Below are positions 52 to 47,925 of a stretch of 64,000 nt of DNA, in pieces. Each line of letters starts with the position of its first letter. Position 1 is the stretch's first letter. Below the pieces are notes generated by a model that saw nothing but the letters and a program-made list of their open reading frames with translations, was not told the DNA's origin and ran no database searches. The translations under genes were made by a program, and so were the position numbers. Source of the stretch: a virus; IMG/VR virus record IMGVR_UViG_3300036715_002842, positions 32,001-96,000 of that record; one strand, given 5' to 3'.

Positions 52-126
52 TGGTGCCCCCGGTGGGGTTCGAACCCACGACCTGAAGATTATGAGCCAT
101 CTGCTCTGCCGCTGAGCTACAGGGGT
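52..126 (-). tRNA. tRNA with CAU anticodon (Met or Ile2)
   Basis: Reverse complement folds as a cloverleaf with anticodon loop CTCATAA, T-loop TTCGAAC and encoded CCA. A1-C72 mismatch; Met versus Ile2 cannot be resolved. Confidence 0.85.
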
Positions 127-168
127 ATTGGTATATTGGTTTGACTTGAGGAAAGATGGATTTCGGAA

Positions 169-252
169 TGGTACCCCTTCTCGGACTCGAACCGAGACGC
201 TCGAAAGCATAGGACCTAAACCTATTGACTGGACCAATTCGTCTAAAGGGGC
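169..252 (-). tRNA. tRNA-Leu(UAG)
   Basis: Anticodon arm ATAGG-TTTAGGT-CCTAT, long variable arm, A73 and CCA. Confidence 0.9.
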
Positions 253-277
253 ATTTGATCTTCTGTCCTTACTATTG

Positions 278-362
278 TGGAACCCGCAACCGGGTTTGAA
301 CCTTACCACACGCGGATATCAGTTCCGCCACGCTCGCATTGGTTGATGAATTAGGCGGATTC
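278..362 (-). pseudogene. Degenerate tRNA-like sequence
   Basis: Ends in GCGGGTTCCA, has a GGTTCAAACC T-loop-like element and a GCGGA-ACTGATA-TCCGC hairpin, but no normal D arm. Confidence 0.45.
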
Positions 363-515
363 ACCACTGGTCGGTTTTCCCTCCCCATTAAGACCAGTGC
401 GCACCAGCCTTAACTACGGTCGACCTTTACGGTTCTCTGGGGCTAAGCCACTTGAATCCGATAGGTGGTACCCGTTCTCGGAAATGACTTAACGATACGA
501 AGAGCCGTCAAGAAT

Positions 516-591
516 TGGAGCCCACAACCGGGTTCGAACCGATGACCTCCTGATTACAAAGCAGGTGCTCTACCAACTGAGCTATGCAGGC
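516..591 (-). tRNA. tRNA-Thr(UGU)
   Basis: Canonical 76-nt cloverleaf, loop TTTGTAA, CCA end. Confidence 0.95.
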
Positions 592-610
592 AAAGGTGTC
601 GGACTGAAAC

Positions 611-1048
611 TTGAAGGGCCATCCGACTGCCACTCAAAGGTGGGTGCATATATCGCTAGGCCGAAGGTATTTTGGATGCGGTAGATCTAAGAGATCCGAA
701 GTCCTTGACAGTTTTGGAAAGAAGGTTCTTCTTGACTCGACTTACGAATTGGAGGTTTCGGAACTTTTGAATCAGCTTGGAATTCGTTGGATTAGACCCA
801 AACCATTGAGTTGGTATTTGGAGGGCAAGCAGCACCTATACCACCCAGATTTCTTTTTAACGGATTTCAATCTCTATCTGGATCCGAAGAACGACTATCT
901 AGCTCGAATTGATGTAGGGAAAATTTCCCTAGTAAGTTGGCAGAACGCAGTTGTAATTCGAATTCTAACCAAGAAGCAAATTACACTTGAGTATCTGAAA
1001 GGATTGGTAGCCCCGGAGAATTTTGAAATCTCGACCTACCGCGTGTAA
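611..1048 (+). CDS. PD-(D/E)xK endonuclease domain, likely a truncated homing endonuclease
   Basis: DSTYE...HLYHPDFFLTDFNLYLDPKN resembles phage PD-(D/E)xK nuclease domains. Antisense to the tRNA array, 3' end overlaps tRNA-Val, and the start is a weak TTG. Confidence 0.55.
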   Translation: MKGHPTATQRWVHISLGRRYFGCGRSKRSEVLDSFGKKVLLDSTYELEVSELLNQLGIRWIRPKPLSWYLEGKQHLYHPDFFLTDFNLYLDPKNDYLARIDVGKISLVSWQNAVVIRILTKKQITLEYLKGLVAPENFEISTYRV

Positions 1049-1079
1049 GGCGATTGCTCTACCTCTGAGCTACAGGGCT
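1005..1079 (-). tRNA. tRNA-Val(UAC)
   Basis: Cloverleaf with loop CTTACAC, A73 and CCA. Confidence 0.9.
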
Positions 1080-1080
1080 A

Positions 1081-1735
1081 AGGTCGGGGATTCTTCAGCG
1101 GCGCCACCTAGGAGATCCCCTACAATTGCCGCCTGCTGGGGACTAGCATTGCTGCCCCACCCTCACCACCAGGTCTACCGAGTTAGGGCCTGATCCTGGA
1201 TTAAGATCCGGCCCCCTTGACCGGTGCGCACAACTGATCTTGTTCGGGGAACTGGAGTCCCGGCCGGATGACAACTCCAACTCCCCTTCAACCACCGCCC
1301 TCGAGGGGTAACAGTGAACCGAAGTCCACAGTGGTCGATCTAGTTCGGGGACCCACCACCCGCGTGGTTGCAGGTCCCCTTCGGACGCCTGACGGCCAGT
1401 CCGATCTTTAAGATATTCGGGAGTTCACGCCTCACTCCCTAGCGTCCAAGACTTTGCGGCGAAGTGACAATCCTAAGATCGTCTCCGAAGTTGCAGAGCA
1501 TCTTCGTGTAGCGCGTGGATCCTTTTGTAACTTTGACAGTTTCCAACAACCTTTAGAGGGAAGTCTTTCACTATCCTGGAGATTGCGGGAGTAGGTGCTG
1601 TGTCGGGCACCACGACCTTCAGAAGCAAGAAGAGGCTTGAATGACCGTCCAAGTATCTCTCCACCCTCACACGCGGTAGGCGTGGGGCTCGTCCTTCTGT
1701 TCCAGACCGGTTTCTGGCTGTGTACCGGTAAATGC
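1081..1735 (-). ncRNA. Candidate large structured ncRNA A (~650 nt)
   Basis: No credible ORF. Continuous series of GC-rich hairpins and a repeated junction motif, located between two tRNAs of one operon. Confidence 0.55.
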
Positions 1736-1810
1736 TGGTGGACCTGGAGGGAATTGAACCCCCGACATCTGCCTTGCAAAGGCAGCGTTCTCCCGCTGAA
1801 CTACAGGCCC
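1736..1810 (-). tRNA. tRNA-Ala(UGC)
   Basis: GGGCCTG acceptor strand with G3-U70, loop TTTGCAA, CCA. Confidence 0.95.
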
Positions 1811-1846
1811 GTGCTGTCAAACAACTTAATCTTTAACCTACTTTGT

Positions 1847-1921
1847 TGGTACTCCCAGTTGGAATCGAACCAACGTCTAGAGCTTAGAAGGCTCTTGCTA
1901 AATCCCCTCAGCTATGGGAGC
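1847..1921 (-). tRNA. tRNA-Arg(UCU)
   Basis: Anticodon arm AGAGC-CTTCTAA-GCTCT, CCA end. Confidence 0.9.
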
Positions 1922-1924
1922 GAA

Positions 1925-2007
1925 TGGAGGCCCGGTGGAGAGTCGAACTCCTAACCTTTCGGACGAGGGTTGCAATCTCGCGCCAGTCCACACCAGCTTC
2001 CCGAGCC
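1925..2007 (-). tRNA. tRNA-Cys(GCA) with tRNA-Sec-like (selC*-like) fold
   Basis: GCA anticodon and U73-CCA. Also a 6-bp D stem with 4-nt loop, extended anticodon stem, CC-GAAA-GG variable hairpin and 4-bp T stem. Confidence 0.8.
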
Positions 2008-2025
2008 TAGGTCTTGCATCTTGAA

Positions 2026-2102
2026 TGGTAGCCCAGGTGGGAGTCGAACCCACAGAACCCAGATTTTGAATCTGGTACCTATACCAATTCGGTTACTGAG
2101 CC
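2026..2102 (-). tRNA. tRNA-Leu(CAA) lacking the long variable arm
   Basis: CCAGA-TTCAAAA-TCTGG anticodon arm, 5-nt variable loop, A73 and CCA. Confidence 0.88.
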
Positions 2103-2291
2103 ATTGAGTACGTGGCGGACCCTTTCATAGTTTCCACCCTTTGGAGTCAATCCAACTTGTAGTAGGATTTGACGAATGTTTTTGCAAGTTTTAGACGCTT
2201 CTGAAATTTGCTCATCTGTTACTTTTGTCTTGCAGTTGATGTTTCTTCCTCGGTACGTTTCAGTTTGGCTATGACAGTTTGGACATAGAAG
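2103..2291 (-). pseudogene. HNH homing endonuclease C-terminal remnant
   Basis: Manual translation LLCPNCHSQTETYRGRN...NIRQILLQVGLTPKGGNYERVRH matches the end of the HNH motif typical of phage tRNA-region endonucleases. No start or N-terminal half. Confidence 0.75.
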
Positions 2292-2305
2292 AGAATTTTA
2301 AGGAT

Positions 2306-2587
2306 TGGTGCGCCCGGCCGGAATCGAACCGGCACGCTCTTACGAACAACAGATTTTCATCCTACTTCATGTTGCCATGACCGTTTCCGTTGTAGGCTGG
2401 ACTATCCCTTGACCTTATCCGAGGACTTAGGCCCCCACCGTCTAGTCTCTACACCTTCCTATTTCTAGGCTTGGCTCGGGATTGTCCTAAGGAGTTTCCC
2501 CGAATTTGATGGGATTCACGCTGGAGGTTTCCGACCCAGGTGCTCAAATCATAAGTCTGTGGCGTCTACCAGTTCCGCCACGGGCGC
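2306..2587 (-). tRNA. tRNA-Leu(UAA), split by a group I intron (exons 2553-2587 and 2306-2357)
   Basis: Joining ...CAGACTT to AAAATCTG... restores the loop CT-TAA-AA. Long variable arm and CCA. Confidence 0.92.
2358..2552 (-). mobile_element. Group I self-splicing intron (IC3-like, 195 nt, no ORF)
   Basis: Starts after U and ends in G. Core motifs CAAATTCGGGGAAAC, GTAGAGACTAGACGG and AAGGGATAGTCC. Inserted U^AA in the anticodon, as in cyanobacterial and plastid tRNA-Leu introns. Confidence 0.92.
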
Positions 2588-2716
2588 AAAAGTTAGGGCT
2601 CGCTACGACACTTCCCACCTATCGATGGATCAACATGCCACCGGGTCTTACGGCCACACCTAACACAACCTCCGATTTACCCAAGATAATCGGTTTAAAA
2701 TACTGCTTGGGGCAGT

Positions 2717-2804
2717 TGGAGCGGGAGATGGGACTTGAACCCACGATGGACTTTCGTCACGTCAGCTTGGAAGGCTGATGCCTTAACCACTAGGCTACAC
2801 CCGC
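2717..2804 (-). tRNA. tRNA-Gly(UCC) with an atypical long variable arm
   Basis: GCGGG acceptor, TCAGC-CTTCCAA-GCTGA, U73-CCA and a 17-nt variable region containing GAC-GAAA-GTC. Confidence 0.88.
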
Positions 2805-2939
2805 TTTGGAGAAACCTGGAAAATTTCATCCAGATTTCAAGGTAGAAGGAAAATTTGTGGCAACGTGATGACATTCGCTACTACGTATCCCCAAGCCTAA
2901 CACTCTAGGTAGCTTGGTTTATGTCAAGAGGACTTTTAT

Positions 2940-3308
2940 TGGTGGAGGTGGGGGAAATCGAATCCCCGTCCGAAAAGCTTCAGAAGGTAATTCATTCACA
3001 GGCTTAGTTCGAATCTAGTGACCTCTGTGGAGGATCGAACAACTCCAATCGAGGACTTGTTCCTTTGTCTCAACTGGAAGCCAGGAACACTCTTCCAATC
3101 CAGTTTATCTCTTCACCTCAGCAGGACGAATCCACCCTCGGATCTGATGCAACTAGGCTACTAAACGATCACCTAGAGGTTGCTGCTTACGCAGCCTGGA
3201 GAAAACGATCGTTTTCGGCAGTTGTGTTTGTTGGGCTTTTTAGGAGGCCAGCCCACCTCCGCCTGCACTACACTCCGGATTAGCCATCCGTCGAAACCTG
3301 GCACCCCC
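2940..3308 (-). ncRNA. ssrA: tmRNA, tag peptide (A)AENDRFLQAA* at 3187-3219
   Basis: 5' GGGGGTG...TTCGAC and 3' GGACGGGGATTCGATTTCCCCCACCTCCACCA with G3-U70. Internal resume frame ends Ala-Ala-TAA. Confidence 0.96.
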
Positions 3309-3441
3309 AAGAGTTGGATTGGCTTGTAGGACCAATCCTGAGAGATCGTTACATTTGGTTTGCACCTACTAACGATTCACACCTTAGCACCGGTTCACCT
3401 TCCACCGAAAGGTTCCCCAAGTTGCTTAGACCTGGGAATTG

Positions 3442-3512
3442 TAGGTCCAGAGGGTATCGAACCCTCTTCCTCGCCTTAAAAGGGCGATGCTTCACCTTAA
3501 AGCTTTGGACCC
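3442..3512 (-). tRNA. tRNA-Lys(UUU), CCA not encoded
   Basis: TCGCC-CTTTTAA-GGCGA anticodon arm and GGGTCCA/TGGACCT acceptor. Confidence 0.88.
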
Positions 3513-3604
3513 GTTTGATGGGGATAGGAGGCAATGACCCATTCGGAGCCGCCTACCGTTAACCCATGCTGGACCCCACGGTCAGACCAGCATGCCCAAG
3601 ATTC

Positions 3605-3680
3605 AGACCAAAGAGTGGGTTCGAACCACTGTCCTCCCCAGACGTGCTGGGCGCTCTGACCGGCTGAGCTACCTTGGTCC
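3605..3680 (-). tRNA. Atypical tRNA-like RNA (ACG in a 5-nt loop, no U33, no CCA)
   Basis: Canonical D and T arms and acceptor stem, but the anticodon arm is CCCAG-CACGT-CTGGG. Confidence 0.6.
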
Positions 3681-3684
3681 TTTC

Positions 3685-4524
3685 CAGCTAGTGCACTAGC
3701 GTCAACAAGCCCGGATGTGGGTCTAGAACTCCACGGGGCTTGCAGGGAACTGATTGGTGGTAGCCCGATCCTCTGCTACTGAGCAAGTTGACCGGCACCT
3801 CATCGGGATGACGACCAACTGGCACCGAAGTGCACCACGGGGCTTGCAGGGAACTGATTGGTGGTAGCCCGATCCTCTGCTACTGAGCAAGTTGACCGGC
3901 ACCTCATCGGGATGACGACCAACTGGCACCGAAGTGCACCAAAGAACTACTTCACTCCCTCCTTTCTCCGGAGCAGCTCGAACTTCGCTGCCGCGGCCAG
4001 AAGGGATCCTGACTGAACCACCGCCTGCAACTGCGAGACGGTCATCCTACGCACGCTCTCTGCGTGCTTGCTTGATTGTGCCATGGGGCACCTCCTTCCA
4101 ACAAGTTGTTGGAAGGTCTTACGTGTCTGCGTACCTCATCGTTGCTCCTTTTGGAAAAGTGGAAGGATCGGGTTCGGTGTTATTTCACCCTCCAGGTCGT
4201 GTAACGTCCTAGGGAAGTCCCACCCGATTTCTTGAAGATATTTGGTTGGGGATTGGTGGCCACCGCACCCCAACCTACCTGTCGGTCCTATTGCCGTGGA
4301 TCGTTCATTCCCAACCTCCACGAGGAGTAGGTCCTTTTCGTCCCTGTTGGCAGCGACCGGTCTGTGCCGGGCTCACCGCTAGTTCTGTGGAGTCAGGGCT
4401 CCAGACATCCCGAGGGGAATTTGCACGGGACGATCTTGTGTTACAGAAAGGTACGAGTAGGAGTTCGCAAAGCTCCATTCTCCACTCATTGCGGAGATCC
4501 TGCACTTGGAGGTGATACTCGTAA
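3685..4524 (-). ncRNA. Candidate large structured ncRNA B (~730-840 nt)
   Basis: No credible ORF. Many perfect helices, e.g. 4452-4459/4516-4523, 4094-4103/4107-4116 and 4051-4067. Lies inside the tRNA operon. Confidence 0.55.
3731..3941. repeat. Exact tandem duplication of a 104-bp unit
   Basis: 3731-3834 is identical to 3835-3938. Confidence 0.95.
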
Positions 4525-4601
4525 TGGTCGGCTATGAGTGATTCGAACACTCGACCTTCGCGACCCAAACGCGACGCGCTACCAGGCTGCGCTAATAGCC
4601 G
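4525..4601 (-). tRNA. tRNA-Pro(UGG)
   Basis: C1-G72, loop TTTGGGT, A73 and CCA. Confidence 0.95.
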
Positions 4602-4798
4602 GGAGGACTCGGTTTTAGTGGAGTTGACTGGAACCCGACCCCGAGTCACCCAGTTGCGCTGCTCCGCTGGGATGCCGGAGGTATTCACCGCTTTCGCGGG
4701 GCGCTGGAGGTCCCCTCAGTCAGTGGGAACCGGGGTCTAACACCTGATGCGCTTTTCGCTCTTGGGCCGCTTTTCATGACCGTTCAGGCAGTTACCTT

Positions 4799-4872
4799 TG
4801 GTTAGGGTGGTAGGATTCGAACCTACGAGGGGAGCGTCAAAGACTCCTGGTTTACCGCTAGCCTACACCCCA
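4799..4872 (-). tRNA. tRNA-Gln(UUG)
   Basis: U1-A72, GGAGT-CTTTGAC-GCTCC, CCA. Confidence 0.92.
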
Positions 4873-16826: not shown

Positions 16827-17105
16827 CTAACTAGCGAGCGGCAGCTTTTCAATTTCTGCCATGAATGAAGGTGGGGTTGTGAAAGCTGCCGCTCGAGGTA
16901 TCTTAAAGTACGGATCGGTAAATCCGATGGCACCTTCAGAGATGGCATCCTTAATAAGGAACCGTGGAGTGTCCAGGATGACCAGAGTTTCGTTCTTCCA
17001 CTCTTCCGGATACTCTAGAACGAACTGAGCAATAGCGTGCCCAGCTTGAGACATCTTTTGTCCGAAAGAAAGTTTTTCGTCGATCAGAATGTAGAGCTTA
17101 GTCAT
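16827..17105 (-). CDS. Pth2-like peptidyl-tRNA hydrolase
   Basis: KLYILIDEKLSFGQKMSQAGHA, WKNETLVIL, FTDP and C-terminal KLPL match the phage Pth2-type pattern. GAGG RBS before ATG 17105. Confidence 0.75.
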   Translation of the reverse strand: MTKLYILIDEKLSFGQKMSQAGHAIAQFVLEYPEEWKNETLVILDTPRFLIKDAISEGAIGFTDPYFKIPRAAAFTTPPSFMAEIEKLPLAS

Positions 17106-17409
17106 CGCTTTCCTCGTCTTCATCGTTCTTCTTGATGAGATAGGGTTTGAGAGGGTCCATATAAATGACCCCATCCTTCTTGAACGCTTCCTCGATTGCA
17201 GACATGGGAAACTTGAAAGTGTAATAGTTGTCGTTACAACTGTAAGAACAACGGCAAGGATTCACTTCCCGAATATTCGCGATAAGATGGTCACCCTCCA
17301 TTCGAAATCCCTGCAACCTAAAGTTGCTGAAGAGCTTGGAGTGATAGAAGGCGTCCTTGAGCTTCTGTTCAAACTTCTTCGTGGCTTGAAGGGTTTCGGT
17401 GTAAGACAT
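17098..17409 (-). CDS. Hypothetical protein
   Basis: GGAG RBS before ATG 17409; overlaps the Pth2-like start. Confidence 0.65.
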   Translation of the reverse strand: MSYTETLQATKKFEQKLKDAFYHSKLFSNFRLQGFRMEGDHLIANIREVNPCRCSYSCNDNYYTFKFPMSAIEEAFKKDGVIYMDPLKPYLIKKNDEDEESDD

Positions 17410-17499: not shown

Positions 17500-17673
17500 T
17501 CAGATTGTGGGATGGTAATCCTTTCCAGCAATCTTTACCCAGTTTGACATTCCAATCAAGAGGTGACCGTGCTGAGAAGGGGAGAAGGGGACTAGCCCCT
17601 TCCCATCACAGTGCAGACTTGGCTTAGACGATTCGAAGACCGTCCGGCAACCAAGACAGATCCACTCTTTCAT
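17500..17673 (-). CDS. Small Cys-containing protein (57 aa, not in the ORF track)
   Basis: TGATG coupling to the upstream gene; MKEWICLGCRTVFESSKPSLHCDGKG... Confidence 0.5.
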   Translation of the reverse strand: MKEWICLGCRTVFESSKPSLHCDGKGLVPFSPSQHGHLLIGMSNWVKIAGKDYHPTI

Positions 17674-18119
17674 CACTTCCCCTCTTGCATGTCGAGGAGG
17701 ATCTGCGTACTCAGACCCTGCTGGAAGTCCAGAGTCTCCTTACGGAAACGCTTCTTCTCTTCCCAAGCGGCGATGTCCTCAGCAATCATTTCCTTCCATT
17801 CCGCGAGCTGGCGCTGAGAATAGTGGTCGGCTTGCTTGTGGAAGTAAGAACGGCTGGGATTCCGGTTGGGCTCGATCTGCTCGAGGGTACGTCCACGGAG
17901 AAGGCAGTAAGCGATGTGCTTCGCTCTCCAATTCTGATCGTCGCAGCTGTAGAAGTTCTCGGGCTTGATTGCCAGGAGCTTGGCGCGAAGTTCTTCCTGT
18001 TGCTCCCCGGGAATGGAAGGCTTGAAGGTGGCATCGTAACGCCGTTCCCAATGCCTGCAAGCCACTTCGTGCTTGAGCTCTGCCTTGATGGTTGCGATCA
18101 GTTCTTTGTAAGTGGTCAT
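17673..18119 (-). CDS. Phage protein of unknown function (RAKHIAYCLLRGRTLEQIE motif)
   Basis: GGAG RBS. I recall this motif from phage proteins found near Pth2-like genes, but that recollection is unverified. Confidence 0.75.
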   Translation of the reverse strand: MTTYKELIATIKAELKHEVACRHWERRYDATFKPSIPGEQQEELRAKLLAIKPENFYSCDDQNWRAKHIAYCLLRGRTLEQIEPNRNPSRSYFHKQADHYSQRQLAEWKEMIAEDIAAWEEKKRFRKETLDFQQGLSTQILLDMQEGK

Positions 18120-18121
18120 TA

Positions 18122-18173
18122 GATTCTCCGAAATTTGAAAAGTTTGAGAAAAGGTTTTCGAATTTGGAGAATC
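18122..18173 (-). promoter_or_regulatory. RBS-sequestering hairpin
   Basis: GATTCTCC (18166-18173) pairs with GGAGAATC (18122-18129), which contains the RBS of the 148-aa gene. Further pairing is possible inside the loop region. Confidence 0.7.
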
Positions 18174-18198
18174 ACTAAGGTGGGCGGTTCTACGTCAT
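18172..18198 (-). other. Leader minigene 2: ATG ACG TAG (readthrough MT*NRPP then TAG TGA)
   Basis: AAGGAG RBS 6 nt upstream of the ATG. Confidence 0.7.
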
Positions 18199-18219
18199 CG
18201 TAGGCTCCTTTACGAACAG

Positions 18220-18260
18220 AAAAAACCCAACAGAGGCTGCTGGGCAGCTGATCCGTTGGG
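18220..18260 (-). terminator. Intrinsic terminator/attenuator in the leader
   Basis: CCCAACGGA/TCTGTTGGG stem with an inner GCTGC/GCAGC hairpin, followed by T6. Confidence 0.75.
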
Positions 18261-18320: not shown

Positions 18321-18329
18321 CTACTTCAT
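18321..18329 (-). other. Leader minigene 1: ATG AAG TAG (readthrough open to TAA at 18210-18212)
   Basis: GAGGGA RBS 7 nt upstream; 36 further sense codons span the terminator. Confidence 0.65.
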
Positions 18330-18342
18330 GGTCTTGTCCCTC

Positions 18343-18380
18343 AAATGGTTGGTACTACCCAAAATGGTTGGTACTACCCA
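18343..18380. repeat. Two tandem copies of AAATGGTTGGTACTACCCA (19 bp)
   Basis: Seen directly, immediately downstream of the predicted transcription start. Confidence 0.85.
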
Positions 18381-18387
18381 AAGACTA

Positions 18388-18416
18388 ATTATAACCCCGG
18401 ATCTTTCGTTTGCCAA
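18388..18416 (-). promoter_or_regulatory. Sigma70-type promoter of the Pth2 operon
   Basis: TTGGCA-N17-TATAAT. Confidence 0.75.
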
Positions 18417-18480: not shown

Positions 18481-19518
18481 TCATGGCTGACTCCCAGAAG
18501 TAAGGACGTTTCGTTCCATGGGCTGACCGTGCATCCAGTGTTTCACGGTCTGGACATGGGAGGCCCGGACGAACTTCCCAACCTTGACCCGAAACTCAGA
18601 GAAGGGGAATGCCTCGGCCACCCGGACCACATAGCCCTCCTGGCGATCCCATTTGCGCTTGTCCCACAAGGCGCGGATGGCCTTTTCGTCATAGATTCCG
18701 TCGTAGAGTACGGGAACAGGAGTAATCCCCAACAGGGCAAACCATTCCAGCGTCTCGTCCCAGGGGAGGCAGATGTTCCGGTCATCCCAGATGGAGAACC
18801 CAAGCAGGTAGCTGGGAAGGCCGTCGTAGCCGATGGAATGCTTGGCGTAGAGGTTTTCGCCGCACACTCGCCATCCTTCCGGGATGTCCATACGGATCTG
18901 GGACCAGAATTGCTTGACCCAGTTCCGGCTGGGGTGACTGCGCCCATCCAGGCTCCGAGCGTGGATGTGATCCTGGTAGAGGGACGTGTTTTCTCCGTCC
19001 ATTTTCTCGGTAACGATCACCCGCTTCCCTGCGAGGGCTGCGGTGGAATCCATCATTCGGTCGTCGTCGTTCATTCCCTCCGACCATGGCAGATGGTGGG
19101 TCCTGGGATACTTGACCCAGTGGGTGAATAGGCTAAGAACGCCGCCAATGGCGAGCACCTTCTGAACGCTCTCGTCATGGAACAACTCCCCCTTGAGGCG
19201 CTGGCCATTGGGGAGGATGGGATTCCCCCACTTGTCATAAGGCTGGTCCGCGTAGAGATGTGGTGGGAGCAAAGATTTGGTGATCCCGCAGGCGTTACGA
19301 ACATCCTCGGTGGAGATCTCTGTGGTTTCGCACCGCATGTGGTGATCGCCACAAACGGAAGCGCCGTTGTCGAGGTAGTAGCCTCCGTCCGGCCACAGTC
19401 TGCGTTCCAGGATGTGGTGGGCGTCCGCAGCAGGTTCCCCGCAGAAGACACAGCGGCCCTTGGCGCGAGCAAACACGGCCTCGCGGAAAGCGTCTCTGGT
19501 TAGCAGCAGGGCGTTCAT
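18481..19518 (-). CDS. HNH domain fused to an ATP-dependent RNA ligase (Rnl2-like)
   Basis: N-terminal CVFC...DAHHI...NGASVCGDHH HNH motif. KYPRTHHLPWS, TEKMDGEN (motif I), GENLYAKHSI, EGYVVR and KFVR ligase motifs. Confidence 0.88.
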   Translation of the reverse strand: MNALLLTRDAFREAVFARAKGRCVFCGEPAADAHHILERRLWPDGGYYLDNGASVCGDHHMRCETTEISTEDVRNACGITKSLLPPHLYADQPYDKWGNPILPNGQRLKGELFHDESVQKVLAIGGVLSLFTHWVKYPRTHHLPWSEGMNDDDRMMDSTAALAGKRVIVTEKMDGENTSLYQDHIHARSLDGRSHPSRNWVKQFWSQIRMDIPEGWRVCGENLYAKHSIGYDGLPSYLLGFSIWDDRNICLPWDETLEWFALLGITPVPVLYDGIYDEKAIRALWDKRKWDRQEGYVVRVAEAFPFSEFRVKVGKFVRASHVQTVKHWMHGQPMERNVLTSGSQP

Positions 19519-19639
19519 TGGGTGGTTCCTTTCGAGTTGGATTCATTACATTTCAGACGCTACCGTATGGCGTACCTGTGGGTGTATCCCCTTGAATTCT
19601 GGCTCGTAGTGTTTCAAAGCGGTTTCACTCTTAAAAAAG

Positions 19640-19711
19640 TCCCCACGGTGGTAGTCGAAACCACGACACAGTGTTTTAGAAGCACCTGCTCTACCGTTGA
19701 GCTACGTGGGG
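19640..19711 (-). tRNA. Amber-suppressor tRNA (anticodon CUA), CCA not encoded
   Basis: CCCCACG TA GCTC AACGGTA GAGC A GGTGC TTCTAAA ACACT GTGTC GTGGT TTCGACT ACCAC CGTGGGG A. Canonical spacing places CUA at 34-36. Confidence 0.85.
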
Positions 19712-19730
19712 AAAGATCTGCTACCTAGAA

Positions 19731-19758
19731 AGAATAACCTTGAATTTTGAATTGTCAA
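19731..19758 (-). promoter_or_regulatory. Sigma70-type promoter of the suppressor tRNA
   Basis: TTGACA-N16-TATTCT, about 20 nt upstream of the tRNA. Confidence 0.75.
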
Positions 19759-19770
19759 TCCGAAATTATG

Positions 19771-19797
19771 AAAAAGCGACCAGTTCTCTGGTCGCTC
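19771..19797 (-). terminator. Intrinsic terminator after the actin-like gene
   Basis: AGCGACCAG-AGAA-CTGGTCGCT followed by a T-run. Confidence 0.7.
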
Positions 19798-19825
19798 TTA
19801 AGAACAGGAAGAAAAGTTAAATTAT

Positions 19826-20815
19826 CTATTCATCTGAGTGCGCCAGGGCAGCGAACAGGCACCCCTTCGCGATAGCCTTCAGAGGATCCTCAGCACGAAC
19901 TACCTTGCCAATCTTGATGGGGAGGTTCTGCGCCTTGAGAGCCTCTTCGAACAGTTCGATGAACCCGCCGGGAAGAGAGGTTCCACCTGCGACTGCGATC
20001 TTGGGCGGCTTCTGGAAGTCTGGTAGCTTCGCCATGCCAAGGAGTTTGTCCTTGATTTGCTTGGCTACGTACTCCAACATCGCCTTGTAGTAGTACGAAA
20101 TGGCTTCCTCGGTCTGATCCTTGGGCTTGCGGAGATCAATGATCCCCTCCTTTGCGAGCATAGCCTTGACCGTGGAGATACCCAGAGAGGTGGAAACGTT
20201 CTTGTCAATGTAGTCACCGGAACGGGCTACGGAGAAGTTGAAGGCTTCCACACTCAATTGTGCGCAGCAGACATTGCACATGCCAGCGCCCCACGAAACA
20301 CCAAAGCCAGAAAGATTGTCCTCGAGGAGTTCACTGTAAATGACCGACAGACCTTCATTGAGTGGTACTGGAGTGTAACCCATGTCGGTTAGGATCTTGT
20401 TGAACACATTCGAGTGGTAAACTGCATTGAACTCCTGATCGACTGGATCCCCTGGGACGGAGTAGACCACCTTTTCTTTCTTGGTGGCAGGAGCCCCAAG
20501 GGACTCTTTGATGATCGCCTGGATGATTGGCAGCGCCTTAATCTCATGGGGATTGAGAACACCTTGCGACATAGGTCGCTTGGGCTCACTGTTGAAAGCG
20601 CTAGCGAGCTCCAGTGCCTGCTGACCTAAAGCAGAAATTTCCCCCTCAAGTTCCACGTAAGGTGCACCCACCTTCTTGAGCATCGATTTTACGAAGGGGG
20701 ATTTCTCTACTGGTACGAAGATATTGCGGAAAGCTTTGTACTCGAAGCTCTCCCCATCTGCACCAACCCTCGCAGCTACGATATTTCCAGTTCCCAAATC
20801 TAGTCCACAGGGCAT
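19826..20815 (-). CDS. Actin-like ATPase (MreB/FtsA/ParM superfamily)
   Basis: GLDLGTGN (phosphate 1), LNEG, SWGAGMCNV (phosphate 2), VAGGTS (adenosine) and DPLKAIAKG. Confidence 0.88.
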   Translation of the reverse strand: MPCGLDLGTGNIVAARVGADGESFEYKAFRNIFVPVEKSPFVKSMLKKVGAPYVELEGEISALGQQALELASAFNSEPKRPMSQGVLNPHEIKALPIIQAIIKESLGAPATKKEKVVYSVPGDPVDQEFNAVYHSNVFNKILTDMGYTPVPLNEGLSVIYSELLEDNLSGFGVSWGAGMCNVCCAQLSVEAFNFSVARSGDYIDKNVSTSLGISTVKAMLAKEGIIDLRKPKDQTEEAISYYYKAMLEYVAKQIKDKLLGMAKLPDFQKPPKIAVAGGTSLPGGFIELFEEALKAQNLPIKIGKVVRAEDPLKAIAKGCLFAALAHSDE

Positions 20816-21408: not shown

Positions 21409-21698
21409 TTTTCAAAGATTCGAAGGTCGCCCAGATCGAACGAGACCTGTATTCCGAACGAGTCCTTCGCAGCTTTTTCTAACTTTGCAACCAGAACGTG
21501 AACTGGAGGATCTACGGAGTTGTCACACTCACCCCGCTTTATTTCCAGGATTCTTGAGGACTTGAAGCAAAGATAGAAGGATTCTTCATCAAATTCCATA
21601 TAAAACGGGGAAGTAGCCATTCCCACCCGGTAATTGATATCCGGGGACCATTTGAAATATCTTTGTGAAACGGTTTTCATAAGTTCACGAATTTTCAT
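21399..21698 (-). CDS. Hypothetical protein
   Basis: Overlaps both neighbours on the same strand. Confidence 0.55.
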   Translation of the reverse strand: MKIRELMKTVSQRYFKWSPDINYRVGMATSPFYMEFDEESFYLCFKSSRILEIKRGECDNSVDPPVHVLVAKLEKAAKDSFGIQVSFDLGDLRIFEKCH

Positions 21699-23380
21699 AT
21701 TTTCACCAATTCAAATTTTAATTGTCCGCAATCCCAGATTCGAAGGATTCCCGCTTGATCCATAATTTCTTTCTGCGTTCCAGAAAGGTGTGGAAATCTC
21801 TTTGATAACTTATCGTGTGTGTAGTTCAAACGGTTGATTCTGAAGTCTCTGAAATTTTCAAAACCATGAAAACTGGGCGGAATTTCACCCACAAGACTGA
21901 AACCAGTTTTTAGATACAATTCCCCACGACTCCAACATCCATCAGCAAAGGTGTAAATTCTTTTCCAATTTACCTTTCTTTTGAAGTGTTCGAGAAGTTT
22001 AGAAAATCCACCTACAACACTGCAAGAGGTTGCGTAACGATTGAGATCGTAGGACCCATTTCCCATGGATTTGAGGGTTAACATCGCAACGAGAGCACCC
22101 CCATTCTGAAGCGCGTAGGTTATCGAACCAGCGCCATCCCCTTTGATATGATTTGTCTCATAGAAACTCTTCTTTTGCTGTGAAGTTGGAATTAAGATTG
22201 AACATTTTCTAGCAAAAACTCTTTCTTTTTCTAATCCAACGAAAGCTCGAATTTTCTTTTCAAGTAGGGTTCTCTTAAGTAACCAATCATCCGACCAGAT
22301 ATGAATCAACCTAATTCCCAACCGTTCACATTCGAGGGTCTTTTCGTGGTGGTACTCTGGTTTTTGATGGAGTTCTGAATGCCAGTAAAGACCGTTGTAT
22401 TCAAAAGCTAGTTTGAAATCTGGTAGATAAACATCTATTTCTTTTCTAGATTCAGAAATCTTACCCACCATTTTCGCTAGTTTCTGAAAAGATAACCTTG
22501 CTATCGTTTTCAATTCTAGAGAATCTATGAAGTCAATGAAAGATCTTTCTTCCGCACTACTTCCCTGGTTAGCAAAACCTCTTAACTCCAAATTGGAGTA
22601 TTTCCAGAAGTAATTCGAAGCACCTGCCGCGTTGATTCCAAGTTCAGCTGCAATCTGATCAATACTTCTTTGTTTGTTGCAATACTCTTCTTTCCAGAAT
22701 TCTTCTGAAGTAATTTTTTCGATGATTGCTTGAGGAAGCTTAGGTCTTTGAACAATTCTGCGTCCCCTCGAACTCTGGATAAAATGGGCCACACCATACT
22801 TTCTTAGACTAGTCTCCCTACTTTTCAACTTTATTGATTCAAGTACCGCTGGATTTTCTACCCCATATTTCTGTAAACAGGTGGCTTTCATCTTTAATCT
22901 TATTGATTTTTGTAAGTCAACATTTTTCAATTTCTCCGATATTTTTTCTTTGACTTCCACCGCCTGACTAGCGTTTTCAACTCCAAACCTTTCCAAGTTA
23001 GTTTCTTTCATTCGTTGCTTAACTATATCGGATTGAGCTGGGTGATGAGTTCCATAGTGATTTTGAGAAGTTTCGGCTTTCTTCTTCTTAACTATATCAG
23101 ATTGACTAGCATTTTCAACTCCGAACCGTTCCAAGTTCGTTTCTTTCATTCGTTGCTTAACTATATCAGATTGACTAGCATTTTCAACTCCGAACCGTTC
23201 TAAGTTCGTTTTTCTACACTTGTCAAGAATTTCTTCTTTAGAGGTCTCTAAAATTCGAAGTCTACTTTCACTTTTTCTTTTTCTTGTTGCTGGACAAGAG
23301 TTTGCGGATTTTCCACATCGAGAAGGTTTTTCCGGTGGAAACACCGCAATTAAACCACACCCATACTTACACAACTTCAT
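21695..23380 (-). CDS. Putative free-standing homing endonuclease (Hef-like: 23-aa repeats plus a PD-(D/E)xK/Vsr-like domain)
   Basis: TNLERFGVENASQ repeats (69-bp period, about 22960-23215), EIDVYLPDFKLAFEYNGLYWHS, LIHIWSDDW, RIWDCGQ; AT-rich. Confidence 0.8.
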   Translation of the reverse strand: MKLCKYGCGLIAVFPPEKPSRCGKSANSCPATRKRKSESRLRILETSKEEILDKCRKTNLERFGVENASQSDIVKQRMKETNLERFGVENASQSDIVKKKKAETSQNHYGTHHPAQSDIVKQRMKETNLERFGVENASQAVEVKEKISEKLKNVDLQKSIRLKMKATCLQKYGVENPAVLESIKLKSRETSLRKYGVAHFIQSSRGRRIVQRPKLPQAIIEKITSEEFWKEEYCNKQRSIDQIAAELGINAAGASNYFWKYSNLELRGFANQGSSAEERSFIDFIDSLELKTIARLSFQKLAKMVGKISESRKEIDVYLPDFKLAFEYNGLYWHSELHQKPEYHHEKTLECERLGIRLIHIWSDDWLLKRTLLEKKIRAFVGLEKERVFARKCSILIPTSQQKKSFYETNHIKGDGAGSITYALQNGGALVAMLTLKSMGNGSYDLNRYATSCSVVGGFSKLLEHFKRKVNWKRIYTFADGCWSRGELYLKTGFSLVGEIPPSFHGFENFRDFRINRLNYTHDKLSKRFPHLSGTQKEIMDQAGILRIWDCGQLKFELVKI

Positions 23381-24966
23381 AGTGAAGCCGCCATATCATT
23401 TTCTTTCACTCCACCAGTTAGATCCGTCACCTGGTAGTTAAGAACGTTCGTGCAGACCTTCTTGAACTTCGCAGCACACCCATATAATATCCCAGTACCG
23501 GAATCCGCCCAGTAATAGGTTCGTGGCAAGAACTTGCGTGCGTAGAAGCGCTGCACTCGACCAATTACCTGCTCAATGAATACCTCGTTCGCGGTTGGGC
23601 AAACGATGTGTAAGGTATCAATGCAGGGGATATCAGTTCCCTCGGAGAACAGTTGCTTGGTTGCCACGAGGACATCAATCTTGTTGTTGTAGATTATATT
23701 GATCTGCGCACGCATGTCGGCGTTCAAATCCAATTTCTTTACCTCTTCGAGGAACTGTGGCCAAGTGAGGATTGGATCCCAGTCGATCTCATTCGCTGCG
23801 GCAAGAGAAGAGGTTACGTAGTCAATTGCTTTCTCAAGACCTGTGATCCGGTCAACCAGACTATCTCGATCGGCCTTCTTCATTGGCCCAGTGACACAGG
23901 CGGCGCTGATGCCAGAACTTATGAGCATCGCAGCCAGATTTTCAGCGTGGGCGACTCGCTCGGTAATCACCAGAATACGCCTATTTTCAGCCTGATTCTG
24001 AATTACCTTTTGGACTATCTTCTCATTGCGCGCCTTGTTTTTCACCACGACCGACATGACGGAAACCCAGTTCATGTTCTGCGGCAAAGGGAAGTGGCAG
24101 CCCTTGAGAATCTCGATCTCGCAGTTGTTCTTTACCTTACTCTCATACCGAACGGGTCCGAGAAGATCTGGAAGGAGAAGATGGTAGTTGTCCTTCCGCT
24201 TGGGAGTTGCGGAAACCCCCACAAAGATCTGCGGGTTCATGTACTTCAGGATCTTTGTCAAACTAGCGGCAGGAGCGCGATGGCACTCATCCACCATCAC
24301 TAATCCGAAAAGATTTTGGATTTTCTTCAGTCGATTCACTACATCGTAGTTCACTAGCTGGTAAGTCGAAACTGTAATGGGATAATAGACCGGTTCCCCG
24401 TTCTTGTCGAATTCGAGCTCCCCAACCAACTTTCTGCCAGTTTGAGCTTCAAGTTCGTTGATGTTGGTGTAATCTCGCAACCTAGTAACGAATTGGTCCT
24501 TCAAGTCTACCTTGTTCACTAGGAGAAGGATCTTTTGTTGCTGGAGAGTGATGAACGCAGTCATCACTACAGTCTTACCATAAGCCGGTGGAGCCTGGAA
24601 GATACCACCAATGTTCGGGGTAATGAATGCTTTGATTCCGGCTTTCTGATCATCCTTCAACTTACCGGTGAACTGTAAATCTAATCCAAGGGGGGCATTG
24701 GTTCTACGATCATCAAACTCGAAGTCTTTGAAGAGGTATTGGATCTTGTTAACATCCCCACGGCAGAAAGCGATGTACTCCCCAACCGGACGGTACATAC
24801 GTACATACTCTTCGAGGACTGGGTTGTCCTCATAGTTGTCGTACCCGAAGTCAACCTTCTGTTCGAACCGGTATGTGAAGGACTGCAGAATCGAGGGATT
24901 CTGTTCGACCCACACCCTTGGCACGTAGAGTGCATCTGCGAGAATTGCTTTCACGGCACACCTCAA
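23377..24966 (-). CDS. SF2 DNA helicase (UvsW/XPB-like)
   Basis: APPAYGKT, VDECH, SATPKRKD, SEGTDIP and QVIGRVQR. Confidence 0.9.
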   Translation of the reverse strand: MRCAVKAILADALYVPRVWVEQNPSILQSFTYRFEQKVDFGYDNYEDNPVLEEYVRMYRPVGEYIAFCRGDVNKIQYLFKDFEFDDRRTNAPLGLDLQFTGKLKDDQKAGIKAFITPNIGGIFQAPPAYGKTVVMTAFITLQQQKILLLVNKVDLKDQFVTRLRDYTNINELEAQTGRKLVGELEFDKNGEPVYYPITVSTYQLVNYDVVNRLKKIQNLFGLVMVDECHRAPAASLTKILKYMNPQIFVGVSATPKRKDNYHLLLPDLLGPVRYESKVKNNCEIEILKGCHFPLPQNMNWVSVMSVVVKNKARNEKIVQKVIQNQAENRRILVITERVAHAENLAAMLISSGISAACVTGPMKKADRDSLVDRITGLEKAIDYVTSSLAAANEIDWDPILTWPQFLEEVKKLDLNADMRAQINIIYNNKIDVLVATKQLFSEGTDIPCIDTLHIVCPTANEVFIEQVIGRVQRFYARKFLPRTYYWADSGTGILYGCAAKFKKVCTNVLNYQVTDLTGGVKENDMAASL

Positions 24967-45585: not shown

Positions 45586-45604
45586 ATTAGTGGGAGGAAA
45601 GTCC

Positions 45605-47869: not shown

Positions 47870-47885
47870 TTGTCAAGGGTATATT
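47856..47885 (+). promoter_or_regulatory. Promoter with CCTTGACA-N7-TGTCAAGG palindrome
   Basis: TTGACA-N16-TATATT; same palindrome geometry as at 45547. Confidence 0.7.
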
Positions 47886-47925
47886 TAAAAGTCTCAGAGC
47901 AGTTCACCCTTCAAAGGAGCCACAC

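What the first reader, a model, noticed from the sequence alone, without database searches (positions are those of the whole stretch)
19640..19758. Solitary amber-suppressor tRNA with its own promoter in a phage that is not recoded
Seen: anticodon CUA, C1-G72 with A73, short variable loop, no CCA, located 15 kb from the main tRNA array with a dedicated TTGACA-N16-TATTCT promoter. Long genes (869-1077 aa) have no internal TAG, and TAG is the apparent true stop of several genes. Known: C1-G72/A73 is the archaeal/eukaryotic Tyr identity set and also occurs in bacterial tRNA-Pro. Inference: its role is regulated readthrough rather than an alternative genetic code; the charged amino acid is unknown.
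Basis: partly seen in the sequence, partly recalled or inferred. Interest (0 to 1): 0.75.

Follow-up and report, generated by a model that had tools for sequence, protein, structure and literature searches.

The report
Phage stop-reading tRNA tied to switch
This is a real phage gene for a tRNA that reads the stop codon UAG; it does not rewrite the phage's genetic code, and it most likely acts as the trigger of a small gene switch, shared by many large phages, that turns on a tRNA-hydrolase-like gene only when UAG is being read through.

Summary
A well-formed tRNA with anticodon CUA lies at window 19711-19640 on the minus strand (ARAGORN; Rfam 57.7 bits). It has C1-G72, A73 and no encoded CCA, and lies 14.8 kb from the 12-tRNA/tmRNA array, between a terminator plus promoter-like site and a T-run.

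The 105-kb contig (about 38% of the genome) is not recoded. TAG ends 18 of 83 called genes, and no gene is interrupted by TAG.

The tRNA is not solitary in function. On the same strand follow a 7-codon leader (Met-Thr-UAG-Asn-Arg-Pro-Pro-stop), a hairpin that hides the next ribosome-binding site, a 148-aa helical protein and a Pth2-like protein.

- **Linkage:** of 80 phage loci found through the Pth2-like protein alone, 75 carry a co-oriented suppressor tRNA.
- **Leader:** 38 of 73 distinct loci carry the same type of leader, always gated by TAG.
- **Covariation:** Lak megaphages, where TAG is sense, carry a UUA tRNA and a TAA-gated leader.

Most likely the tRNA is the input of a read-through-sensing attenuator. 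This is inferred, not shown. The inserted amino acid remains unknown.

This scan noted the cassette earlier on other DNA. I found no paper that describes it.

The parts
19772..19799 (-). Intrinsic-terminator hairpin with T-run, ending the upstream volactin-like actin gene (20815-19826) and insulating the tRNA unit
   Evidence: -18.3 kcal/mol, z -4.3; sequence
19731..19758 (-). Sigma-70-like promoter TTGACA-N16-TATTCT, about 20 nt upstream of the tRNA 5' end
   Evidence: 10 of 12 matches; plausible from its position but not significant on its own
19640..19711 (-). tRNA(CUA): C1-G72, A73, loop UUCUAAA, C31.A39 mismatch, U53-A61, 5-nt variable loop
   Evidence: compensatory changes against the L087 tRNA
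19633..19639 (-). C plus T6 directly after A73: no encoded CCA; possible end of the transcript
18481..19518 (-). HNH-RNA ligase gene lying between the tRNA and the leader operon. It is absent at this place in sisters L086 and L087, but homologs sit just upstream of the cassette in 7 other loci.
   Evidence: (PF09414 3e-32; phrog_24030 3e-141)
18388..18416 (-). Promoter-like TTGGCA-N17-TATAAT of the leader operon
   Evidence: Read; it straddled the edge of the scan
18343..18382 (-). Two tandem copies of a roughly 19-nt repeat (GGGTAGTACCAACCATTT) just after the -10 element; possible operator
   Evidence: Read; not followed up
18321..18329 (-). Minigene 1: ATG AAG TAG. Its read-through frame runs across the following terminator.
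   Evidence: The same ATG AAG TAG opens the Pth2-like genes of XacN1 and RAS14; Xoo-sp13 has ATG AAG AAG TAG.
18219..18260 (-). Intrinsic terminator hairpin with U-run between the two minigenes
   Evidence: fold
18172..18198 (-). Leader 2: ATG ACG TAG AAC CGC CCA CCT TAG TGA (Met-Thr-UAG-Asn-Arg-Pro-Pro-stop-stop), preceded by AAGGAG
   Evidence: same design in 38 of 73 distinct related loci
18122..18173 (-). Hairpin whose 5' arm (GATTCTCC) starts inside the leader's final stop codons and whose 3' arm (GGAGAATC) holds the ribosome-binding site of the 148-aa gene
   Evidence: 22 of 24 loci against 40% of shuffles
17673..18119 (-). 148-aa all-helical protein with motif HIAYCLLRGRTLEQIE; fold and function unknown
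   Evidence: (homolog directly upstream of the Pth2-like gene in 50 of 80 loci)
17500..17676 (-). 58-aa CxxC protein, overlapping the stop of the 148-aa gene; no homolog in the related loci
17098..17409 (-). 103-aa protein of unknown function; no homolog in the related loci
16827..17096 (-). 89-aa Pth2-like protein (mini peptidyl-tRNA hydrolase 2 fold), ending in TAG

Best explanation
The gene encodes a genuine UAG-reading (amber suppressor) tRNA. It is one part of a cassette that many large phages carry: suppressor tRNA, a tiny leader ORF with an early stop codon that matches the tRNA, an all-helical protein, and a small Pth2-like (peptidyl-tRNA-hydrolase-fold) protein.

Proposed mechanism in this window:
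1. The tRNA is transcribed from its own unit (promoter-like site, tRNA, T-run). It is matured by host RNase P, 3' trimming and CCA addition, and charged by a host synthetase. All of this is inferred.
2. Ribosomes on the leader (Met-Thr-UAG-Asn-Arg-Pro-Pro-UAG-UGA) normally stop at codon 3. That point is too far upstream to disturb the hairpin that sequesters the ribosome-binding site of the 148-aa gene.
3. When charged tRNA(CUA) out-competes RF1, ribosomes read on and pause at the slowly terminating Pro-Pro-stop. There they sit on the 5' arm of the hairpin and free the ribosome-binding site.
4. The operon that ends in the Pth2-like gene is then translated.

The tRNA is therefore the trans-acting input of a read-through-sensing attenuator, not an agent of genome-wide recoding.

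What the output proteins do is open. I favour control or clean-up of the suppressor's own aminoacyl- or peptidyl-tRNA, which would make the loop a feedback.

Shown here: the anatomy, its conservation, and the covariation between anticodon and leader stop. Inferred: expression, charging, suppression, stalling and the enzyme's substrate.
For: The tRNA is real.
- ARAGORN and Rfam agree on it.
- Against the L087 tRNA, which also has C1-G72 and A73, pairing is kept through changes at 5-68 (A-U to U-A) and 53-61 (U-A to A-U). In the anticodon stem all five positions differ; four standard pairs are kept and the window's C31.A39 mismatch is a pair in L087.

The Pth2-like call is supported.
- The family profile hits solved Pth2 chains at E 4e-4 and 2.7e-3.
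- 12 of 42 members hit PF01981.
- The model has pLDDT 96, and its top 14 Foldseek hits are all PTH2-family structures.

The tRNA and the Pth2-like gene are linked.
- 80 IMG/VR loci were chosen only by Pth2-like similarity. 75 carry a suppressor tRNA within 5 kb, always on the same strand (68 loci with CUA, 8 with UUA, one of them with both), with 53 distinct tRNA sequences.
- A homolog of the helical protein lies directly upstream of the Pth2-like gene in 50 of 80 loci.

The leader design is conserved.
- M-x(0-10)-TAG-x(1-10)-PP-stop occurs in 38 of 73 distinct loci, against 5 matches in 1.4 Mb of background, and the gating stop is always TAG.
- The base after the gating TAG is a purine in 23 of 23 distinct leaders.
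- A hairpin pairs the ribosome-binding site with the bases just after the leader stop in 22 of 24 loci, against 40% of shuffles. The window's fold shows the same.

Anticodon and leader stop covary.
- UUA-tRNA loci, including Lak-B7, have leaders of the form MKLQHW-TAA-V..RGP-TAA.

Some Pth2-like genes themselves need UAG read-through.
- In-frame TAG lies inside conserved sequence in L028, L050, L068, L077 and L084.
- An SD-preceded ATG AAG TAG (ATG AAG AAG TAG in Xoo-sp13) lies in frame ahead of the annotated start in XacN1, RAS14 and Xoo-sp13.

Sister loci L086 and L087 have the order tRNA, leader region, helical, Pth2-like, with no ligase between.

The genome is not recoded in the sampled part.
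Against: - Nothing is experimental. Transcription, maturation, charging and suppression are all unknown.
- U53-A61 and the C31.A39 mismatch depart from canonical tRNA.
- C1-G72 with A73 and a short variable arm resembles tRNAs that bacterial synthetases charge poorly. This point is from my own knowledge.
- Here the tRNA is 1.4 kb from the leader, separated by a ligase gene, and has its own transcription unit.
- TAG ends 22% of the genes, and their read-through tails are no shorter than those after TAA or TGA. An efficient suppressor should therefore be costly.
- Only about half of the related loci show the strict PP-stop leader.
- L087's leader (Met-Cys-UAG-Asn-Ser-Asn-Ser-Leu-stop) has no Pro-Pro.
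- The purpose of the output proteins is unexplained.
Confidence: 0.6

Rival explanations
1. The tRNA's main job is general, low-level read-through of TAG-terminated phage or host genes, giving C-terminal extensions or perturbing the host. The leader operon would then be only a side-circuit that limits or cleans up that activity.
For: The tRNA has its own transcription unit away from the leader. Eighteen genes end in TAG, seven of them followed by A. The phage also carries its own tmRNA, which could rescue ribosomes that run off message ends. Published standard-code jumbo phages carry suppressor tRNAs with no assigned target (PMC5852040, PMC6102473).
Against: None of the TAG read-through tails looks like coding sequence, apart from one ordinary adjacent gene that happens to share the frame. 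There is no enrichment of in-frame TAG junctions over TGA or TAA (15, 11 and 10). The tight, co-oriented linkage and the anticodon/leader-stop covariation point to the cassette itself as the selected target.
Confidence: 0.22
2. The phage is TAG-recoded after all, in the roughly 62% of the genome that is not in this contig (for example capsid and lysis genes), and the tRNA serves that recoding.
For: The contig is only 38% complete by CheckV. Recoded phages often confine in-frame stops to late genes (10.1101/2021.08.26.457843). Lak megaphages, which are TAG-recoded, carry a relative of the cassette.
Against: TAG is an unremarkable 22% of stops here, and very long tail-fibre-region ORFs (1079-1674 aa) carry no TAG. 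GC is about 50%, not the low GC linked to recoding. In Lak the cassette uses UAA rather than the recoded codon, so the cassette appears to need a codon that is still a stop. No RF gene was found in the fragment.
Confidence: 0.06
3. The tRNA is a decoy or spare part in a tRNA-damage and repair contest with host anticodon nucleases. It would work with the neighbouring RNA ligase and would not be a decoder of UAG at all.
For: An HNH-RNA ligase lies next to it. Ligase homologs sit directly upstream of the cassette, on the same strand, in 7 of 80 other loci, including UUA-type ones. After other suppressor tRNAs and the phage's own tRNA-Met, the nearest non-suppressor tRNAs include several phage Lys tRNAs.
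Against: This does not explain why the leader stop matches the anticodon, or why TAG lies inside Pth2-like genes. The closest sister loci lack the ligase.
Confidence: 0.06
4. The gene is a decaying or non-functional tRNA copy that happens to carry CUA.
For: C31.A39 mismatch, U53-A61, no CCA.
Against: High Rfam score (57.7 bits). Pairing is maintained through double changes against L087, including A53-U61 there. The linkage is conserved across 53 distinct tRNA sequences.
Confidence: 0.04

Closest known systems
Suppressor tRNAs of standard-code jumbo phages (Xanthomonas phage XacN1, two CUA tRNAs; Agrobacterium phage Atu_ph07, one UCA tRNA)
   Same: A stop-reading tRNA in a very large phage that otherwise uses the normal code. 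XacN1 also carries a Pth2-like domain protein.
   Different: [quoted passage not shown] Here a cognate UAG-gated leader and operon sit on the same strand. In XacN1 itself an ATG AAG TAG lies in frame ahead of ORF364.
Suppressor tRNAs of stop-codon-recoded phages (code 15 crAss-like and Lak phages; Borges/Peters et al., 10.1101/2021.08.26.457843)
   Same: A phage-encoded tRNA(CUA) that overrides a host stop codon and gates the expression of genes that contain in-frame stops.
   Different: There is no genome-wide in-frame TAG here, and TAG is a normal stop. The gated targets are one leader and one small operon. In Lak the cassette relative uses UAA and a UUA tRNA instead.
Leader-peptide translational attenuation with ribosome arrest (SecM, TnaC, RAPP/RGPP-type arrest peptides; Pro-stop slow termination). 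This comparison is from my own knowledge.
   Same: A short upstream ORF whose paused ribosome opens a hairpin that hides the ribosome-binding site of the next gene. It ends in Pro-Pro-stop.
   Different: The pause site is reached only after read-through of an early stop codon, so the signal sensed is suppressor-tRNA activity, not a metabolite, secretion status or an antibiotic.
prfB (RF2) autoregulation through an in-frame UGA (my own knowledge)
   Same: A stop codon inside a translation-factor gene reports on how efficiently that stop is being decoded.
   Different: The mechanism is read-through by a dedicated tRNA, not a +1 frameshift. The output is a Pth2-fold protein, not a release factor.
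Lambda bar two-codon minigenes and host Pth (my own knowledge)
   Same: Two-codon minigenes (ATG AAG TAG; ATG ACG TAG) linked to peptidyl-tRNA hydrolase biology.
   Different: bar minigenes poison Pth-deficient hosts by peptidyl-tRNA drop-off. Here the minigene stop is matched by a phage suppressor tRNA, and the phage brings its own Pth2-like gene.

Membership tests
tRNA (Rfam RF00005) | Cloverleaf with 7-bp acceptor stem, D, anticodon and T arms, U33, and a T-loop of the UUCGA type | tested here: met
   57.7 bits against a gathering score of 29; ARAGORN cloverleaf. Deviations: C31.A39 and U53-A61.
Amber suppressor tRNA | Anticodon CUA at positions 34-36 of a 7-nt loop | tested here: met
   Loop UUCUAAA. 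The UCU register gives only 2 of 5 stem pairs.
Amber suppressor tRNA | Is aminoacylated and inserts an amino acid at UAG in vivo | not testable with these tools
   Indirect only: TAG inside conserved Pth2-like genes and leaders in relatives.
Suppressor tRNA of a TAG-recoded (code 15) phage | Many genes with in-frame TAG; low coding density under code 11; TAG avoided as a stop | tested here: not met
   No TAG-interrupted genes, and TAG makes up 18 of 83 stops in 105 kb. The rest of the genome is unseen.
tRNA-Pyl (ARAGORN's label for CUA) | 6-bp anticodon stem, 3-nt variable loop, shrunken D-loop without GG, atypical T-loop | tested here: not met
   5-bp anticodon stem, 5-nt variable loop, D-loop AACGGUA containing GG, T-loop UUCGACU. 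pyl genes were not searched.
Archaeal/eukaryal-type tRNA-Tyr identity set | C1-G72 plus A73, read by an archaeal-type TyrRS | tested here: inconclusive
   C1-G72 and A73 are present. No class Ib synthetase (PF00579) is in the 105-kb fragment. The host is unknown.
Phage cassette: suppressor tRNA + stop-gated leader + helical protein + Pth2-like (defined by this scan, not published) | Pth2-like gene on the same strand within a few kb of the suppressor tRNA | tested here: met
   tRNA at 19711-19640 and Pth2-like at 17096-16827, both on the minus strand. 75 of 80 related loci show the same linkage.
Phage cassette: suppressor tRNA + stop-gated leader + helical protein + Pth2-like (defined by this scan, not published) | Helical protein with the H-I-A-Y-C-x-L-R-G-R motif upstream of the Pth2-like gene | tested here: met
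   148-aa gene at 18119-17673. Here it is separated from the Pth2-like gene by two extra small genes.
Phage cassette: suppressor tRNA + stop-gated leader + helical protein + Pth2-like (defined by this scan, not published) | Short leader with an early stop that matches the tRNA anticodon, ending in Pro-Pro-stop next to a hairpin that hides the ribosome-binding site | tested here: met
   Leader at 18198-18172 and hairpin at 18173-18122.
PTH2 peptidyl-tRNA hydrolase (PF01981), for the neighbouring 89-aa protein | PTH2 fold and sequence family | tested here: inconclusive
   The window protein itself has no Pfam hit. The family profile hits Pth2 structures at E 4e-4, and 12 of 42 relatives hit PF01981. 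Fold search returns only PTH2 at the top, with TM up to 0.71. Hydrolase activity is untested.

The most novel reading that the evidence does not exclude
The tRNA, the stop-gated leader and the helical plus Pth2-like proteins form a self-contained feedback circuit for stop-codon read-through. The suppressor switches on a hydrolase that acts on the suppressor's own aminoacyl- or peptidyl-tRNA, holding read-through at a set level or clearing its by-products. The circuit is portable between phages and tracks whichever codon is still a stop: UAG in normal-code phages, UAA in TAG-recoded Lak megaphages. It would be a natural orthogonal translational controller, and possibly the stepping stone from which phage stop-codon recoding evolves.
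Probability: 0.2. Interest if true: 0.85.

Novelty: new variant of a known kind. Interest (0 to 1): 0.7.

Why it matters
Suppressor tRNAs in large phages that keep the normal code have been reported without any known target, for example in XacN1. This locus and its relatives supply a concrete, testable target: a tiny leader whose stop codon matches the tRNA and controls a tRNA-hydrolase-like operon.

If the mechanism holds, it is a natural sensor of stop-codon read-through. It would bear on how phages manage or evolve stop-codon recoding, and it would offer parts for synthetic genetic-code work.

Cultured phages that carry relatives (XacN1, Xoo-sp13, RAS14, pT24) make the idea testable at the bench.

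Tried and rejected
Searches that led nowhere
- Megablast of the locus against GenBank phages found nothing. A distant search found only the ligase gene in Caulobacter, Ralstonia and Salicola jumbo phages, with no tRNA synteny.
- A D-arm plus CUA pattern in IMG/VR found three unrelated suppressor tRNAs.
- The 148-aa protein alone found no related loci.
- Pfam and PHROGs on the window's small proteins gave essentially nothing.
- A three-sequence profile against the PDB gave nothing.
- The helical protein has no structural match.
- The N-terminal part of XacN1 ORF364 is not the helical family.

Readings I rejected
- The UCU anticodon register.
- tRNA-Pyl.
- Genome-wide recoding within the sampled 105 kb.
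- Back-up stops after TAG: median read-through tails are 18, 18 and 11.5 codons for TAG, TAA and TGA.

Other negative results
- No aaRS (PF00579, PF00749, PF00152, PF00587), release factor (PF00472) or CCA enzyme (PF01743) in the fragment.
- I could not assign the amino acid. After other suppressor tRNAs, the nearest tRNAs are the phage's own Met and several phage Lys tRNAs, but only weakly. TAG positions inside Pth2-like genes fall at variable columns.
- No host was inferred.

I re-ran it from the stored files.

Full report
**1. Observation**

The window is bases 32001-96000 of a 105,575-bp IMG/VR viral contig that CheckV rates 38% complete. It has about 50% GC. Distant DNA similarity exists only to jumbo phages of Caulobacter, Ralstonia and Salicola.

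ARAGORN finds 12 tRNAs and a tmRNA at 52-4872, and one further tRNA at 19711..19640 on the minus strand with anticodon CUA. Rfam's tRNA model scores this tRNA at 57.7 bits, full length.

Read from the sequence:
- acceptor stem CCCCACG/CGUGGGG, giving C1-G72, with A73;
- D-loop AACGGUA;
- anticodon stem GGUGC/ACACU with a C31.A39 mismatch;
- loop UUCUAAA;
- variable loop GUGUC;
- T arm GUGGU-UUCGACU-ACCAC, that is U53-A61 in place of the near-universal G53-C61;
- then C and six T, so no CCA.

Ten of the twelve array tRNAs do encode CCA.

Upstream lie a strong terminator hairpin (19799-19772, z -4.3) and TTGACA-N16-TATTCT (19758-19731). The promoter match alone is not beyond chance: 2 found against 1.3 expected.

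**2. Is the phage recoded?**

A self-trained codon-score gene call on the whole contig gives 84 genes covering 79% of the sequence under code 11. One gene runs off the contig end. The other 83 stop at TAA (39), TGA (26) and TAG (18).

The read-through tails after the 18 TAG stops are short or non-coding. The single exception is an ordinary adjacent gene in the same frame with its own start. Junctions where both sides of an in-frame stop look coding are no commoner for TAG (15) than for TGA (11) or TAA (10), and nearly all lie antisense to real genes. ORFs of 869-1674 aa, including the tail-fibre region, carry no TAG.

Tails after TAG are no shorter than after TAA or TGA: medians 18, 18 and 11.5 codons. 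No aaRS of four Pfam classes, no release factor and no CCA-adding enzyme is found in the fragment.

So the sampled 38% is standard-code. The remainder is unseen.

**3. Surroundings**

Notes from this scan pointed to the genes downstream on the same strand. I tested that lead myself.

Reading the minus strand, the order is:
- tRNA;
- HNH-RNA ligase, 19518-18481 (PF09414);
- TTGGCA-N17-TATAAT;
- a tandem repeat of about 19 nt;
- minigene ATG AAG TAG;
- an intrinsic terminator;
- AAGGAG followed by ATG ACG TAG AAC CGC CCA CCT TAG TGA;
- a hairpin whose 5' arm begins within those final stops and whose 3' arm GGAGAATC is the ribosome-binding site of a 148-aa gene (fold);
- then genes of 58, 103 and 89 aa.

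The 89-aa protein has no Pfam hit. Its family has 177 representatives. A 42-member profile hits solved Pth2 hydrolases at E 4e-4 and 2.7e-3, and 12 of 42 members hit PF01981. The AlphaFold model (pLDDT 96) finds only PTH2-family structures in its top 14 hits, with TM up to 0.71. It is a Pth2-like protein; its activity is untested.

The 148-aa protein is all-helical (pLDDT 89) and has no structural match.

**4. Comparative test**

Eighty IMG/VR loci were retrieved using only the Pth2-like profile.

- **tRNA linkage.** 75 of the 80 carry a suppressor tRNA within 5 kb, always co-oriented: 68 loci with CUA and 8 with UUA, one locus having both. There are 53 distinct tRNA sequences.
- **Helical protein.** A homolog lies immediately upstream of the Pth2-like gene in 50 of 80 loci, sometimes fused to it.
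- **Leader.** A leader of the form M-x(0-10)-stop-x(1-10)-Pro-Pro-stop occurs within 900 nt upstream in 38 of 73 distinct loci, against 5 matches in 1.4 Mb of background. The gating stop is TAG every time.
- **Context of the gating stop.** The base after it is a purine in 23 of 23 distinct leaders.
- **Hairpin.** In 22 of 24 distinct loci the ribosome-binding site of the next gene pairs with the bases right after the leader stop, against 40% of interior shuffles.
- **Covariation.** The loci with a UUA tRNA are Lak-type megaphages, published as TAG-recoded. They carry MKLQHW-TAA-V..RGP-TAA leaders followed by the helical and Pth2-like genes. The gating stop thus covaries with the anticodon and is a codon that still means stop in that phage.
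- **TAG inside the Pth2-like gene.** Five loci have TAG inside conserved Pth2-like sequence.
- **Cultured phages.** In XacN1, RAS14 and Xoo-sp13 an SD-preceded ATG AAG TAG (ATG AAG AAG TAG in Xoo-sp13) lies in frame 21-75 nt ahead of the annotated start of a protein of about 280 aa. Its C-terminus is Pth2-like.
- **Sister contigs.** Two metagenome sister contigs (66% and 57% identity at the Pth2-like protein) have the order tRNA(CUA), leader region, helical, Pth2-like, with no ligase and no extra small genes.

The L087 tRNA shares C1-G72 and A73 with the window's tRNA. It differs by pair-preserving changes: 5-68 A-U to U-A and 53-61 U-A to A-U. In the anticodon stem all five positions differ; four standard pairs are kept and the window's mismatch is a pair in L087. 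This shows selection on tRNA structure.

**5. Mechanism**

The best-supported reading is that this tRNA is the trans-acting input of a read-through-sensing attenuator. Termination at leader codon 3 leaves the hairpin closed. Read-through carries the ribosome to Pro-Pro-stop, where release is slow (established knowledge of Pro-stop and arrest peptides). The ribosome's footprint then covers the 5' arm and opens the ribosome-binding site of the operon that ends in the Pth2-like gene.

The anatomy, its conservation and the covariation are shown. Expression, charging, suppression, stalling and the enzyme's substrate are inferred.

The purpose of the outputs is open. I favour control or clean-up of the suppressor's own acylated species, by analogy with prfB autoregulation. 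This would fit the phage also carrying a tmRNA.

**6. Amino acid**

The amino acid remains unknown. Across 57 cassette tRNAs the discriminator base is A (36), U (9), G (9) or C (3). Four have long variable arms, and the 1-72 pair is C-G in only four. TAG codons inside Pth2-like genes fall at variable alignment columns. The cassette therefore does not seem to require one particular residue.

For this tRNA, U35 with A73 would favour Lys, and a strong C1-G72 with A73 disfavours GlnRS. Both points are from my own knowledge of E. coli identity rules, not from tests here. After other suppressor tRNAs and the phage's own tRNA-Met, the nearest non-suppressor tRNAs include several phage Lys tRNAs, but the similarity is weak.

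**7. Known or new**

Suppressor tRNAs in standard-code jumbo phages are published: XacN1 in PMC5852040 and Atu_ph07 in PMC6102473. The XacN1 authors report that they could not identify target genes; the Atu_ph07 paper names none. Recoded phages with suppressor tRNAs are well described.

No paper in the searched library combines Pth2, suppressor tRNA and phage, and none describes a stop-gated leader of this kind. The same cassette was noted repeatedly by this scan on other DNA. I re-derived it independently here.

I class it as a new variant of known kinds: phage suppressor tRNA combined with leader-peptide attenuation.

**8. Caveats**

- The contig is a fragment, and the host is unknown.
- The gene call is crude.
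- The strict leader pattern is absent from about half of the loci and from L087.
- The tRNA has unusual features (U53-A61, C31.A39, no CCA).
- A strong suppressor would be costly for 18 TAG-ended genes.

Noticed in passing
window 2940-3308 (-): Phage-encoded tmRNA (Rfam 131.8 bits) with tag peptide AENDRFLQAA, inside the tRNA array. It could matter for rescuing ribosomes that read through stops.
   Followed up: no
window 2377-2562 (-): Group I intron match (RF00028, 57.5 bits) between tRNA-Leu(CAA) and an unusually long 88-nt tRNA-Gly(UCC) at 2717-2804. The gene that hosts the intron was not identified.
   Followed up: no
window 19826-20815 (-): Full-length match to Pfam Volactin (PF25216, E 2e-79): an actin-like protein encoded by a phage, directly upstream of the tRNA unit. 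A homolog lies near the cassette in L073.
   Followed up: partly
window 18343-18382 (-): Two tandem copies of GGGTAGTACCAACCATTT immediately after the -10 element of the leader-operon promoter; possibly an operator.
   Followed up: no
window 18481-19518 (-); L016, L021, L068, L020, L056, L059, L061: HNH-RNA ligase homologs (E down to 1e-124) lie directly upstream of the cassette on the same strand in 7 of 80 other loci, including UUA-type Lak loci. This recurring association is unexplained.
   Followed up: partly
L092 (Prevotella phage Lak-B7, MK250026.1) 1841-2900: A TAG-recoded megaphage carries a UAA version of the cassette: tRNA(UUA), a leader gated by TAA, the helical protein and the Pth2-like gene.
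   Followed up: yes
L089 1940-2800 (XacN1 ORF364); L090 1940-2800 (RAS14); L091 1937-2803 (Xoo-sp13): In these cultured jumbo phages an SD-preceded ATG AAG TAG (or ATG AAG AAG TAG) lies in frame upstream of the annotated start of a protein of about 280 aa with a C-terminal Pth2-like domain. The true start may need amber read-through.
   Followed up: partly
L015, L044, L058, L062, L072, L078 (suppressor tRNAs): Several cassette tRNAs have C instead of U at position 33 (loop CCCUAAA), an unusual departure from the universal U33.
   Followed up: no
window 45590-48927 (+), 53636-55066 (+): rIIA and rIIB homologs (phrog_612 1e-111; phrog_609 3e-71) and a DnaB-like helicase. The plus-strand half of the window is an early or replication region.
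   Followed up: no
window 21695-23380 (-): 561-aa protein with DUF7487 and a weak restriction-endonuclease-like domain, next to a ResIII/SNF2 helicase at 23377-24966.
   Followed up: no
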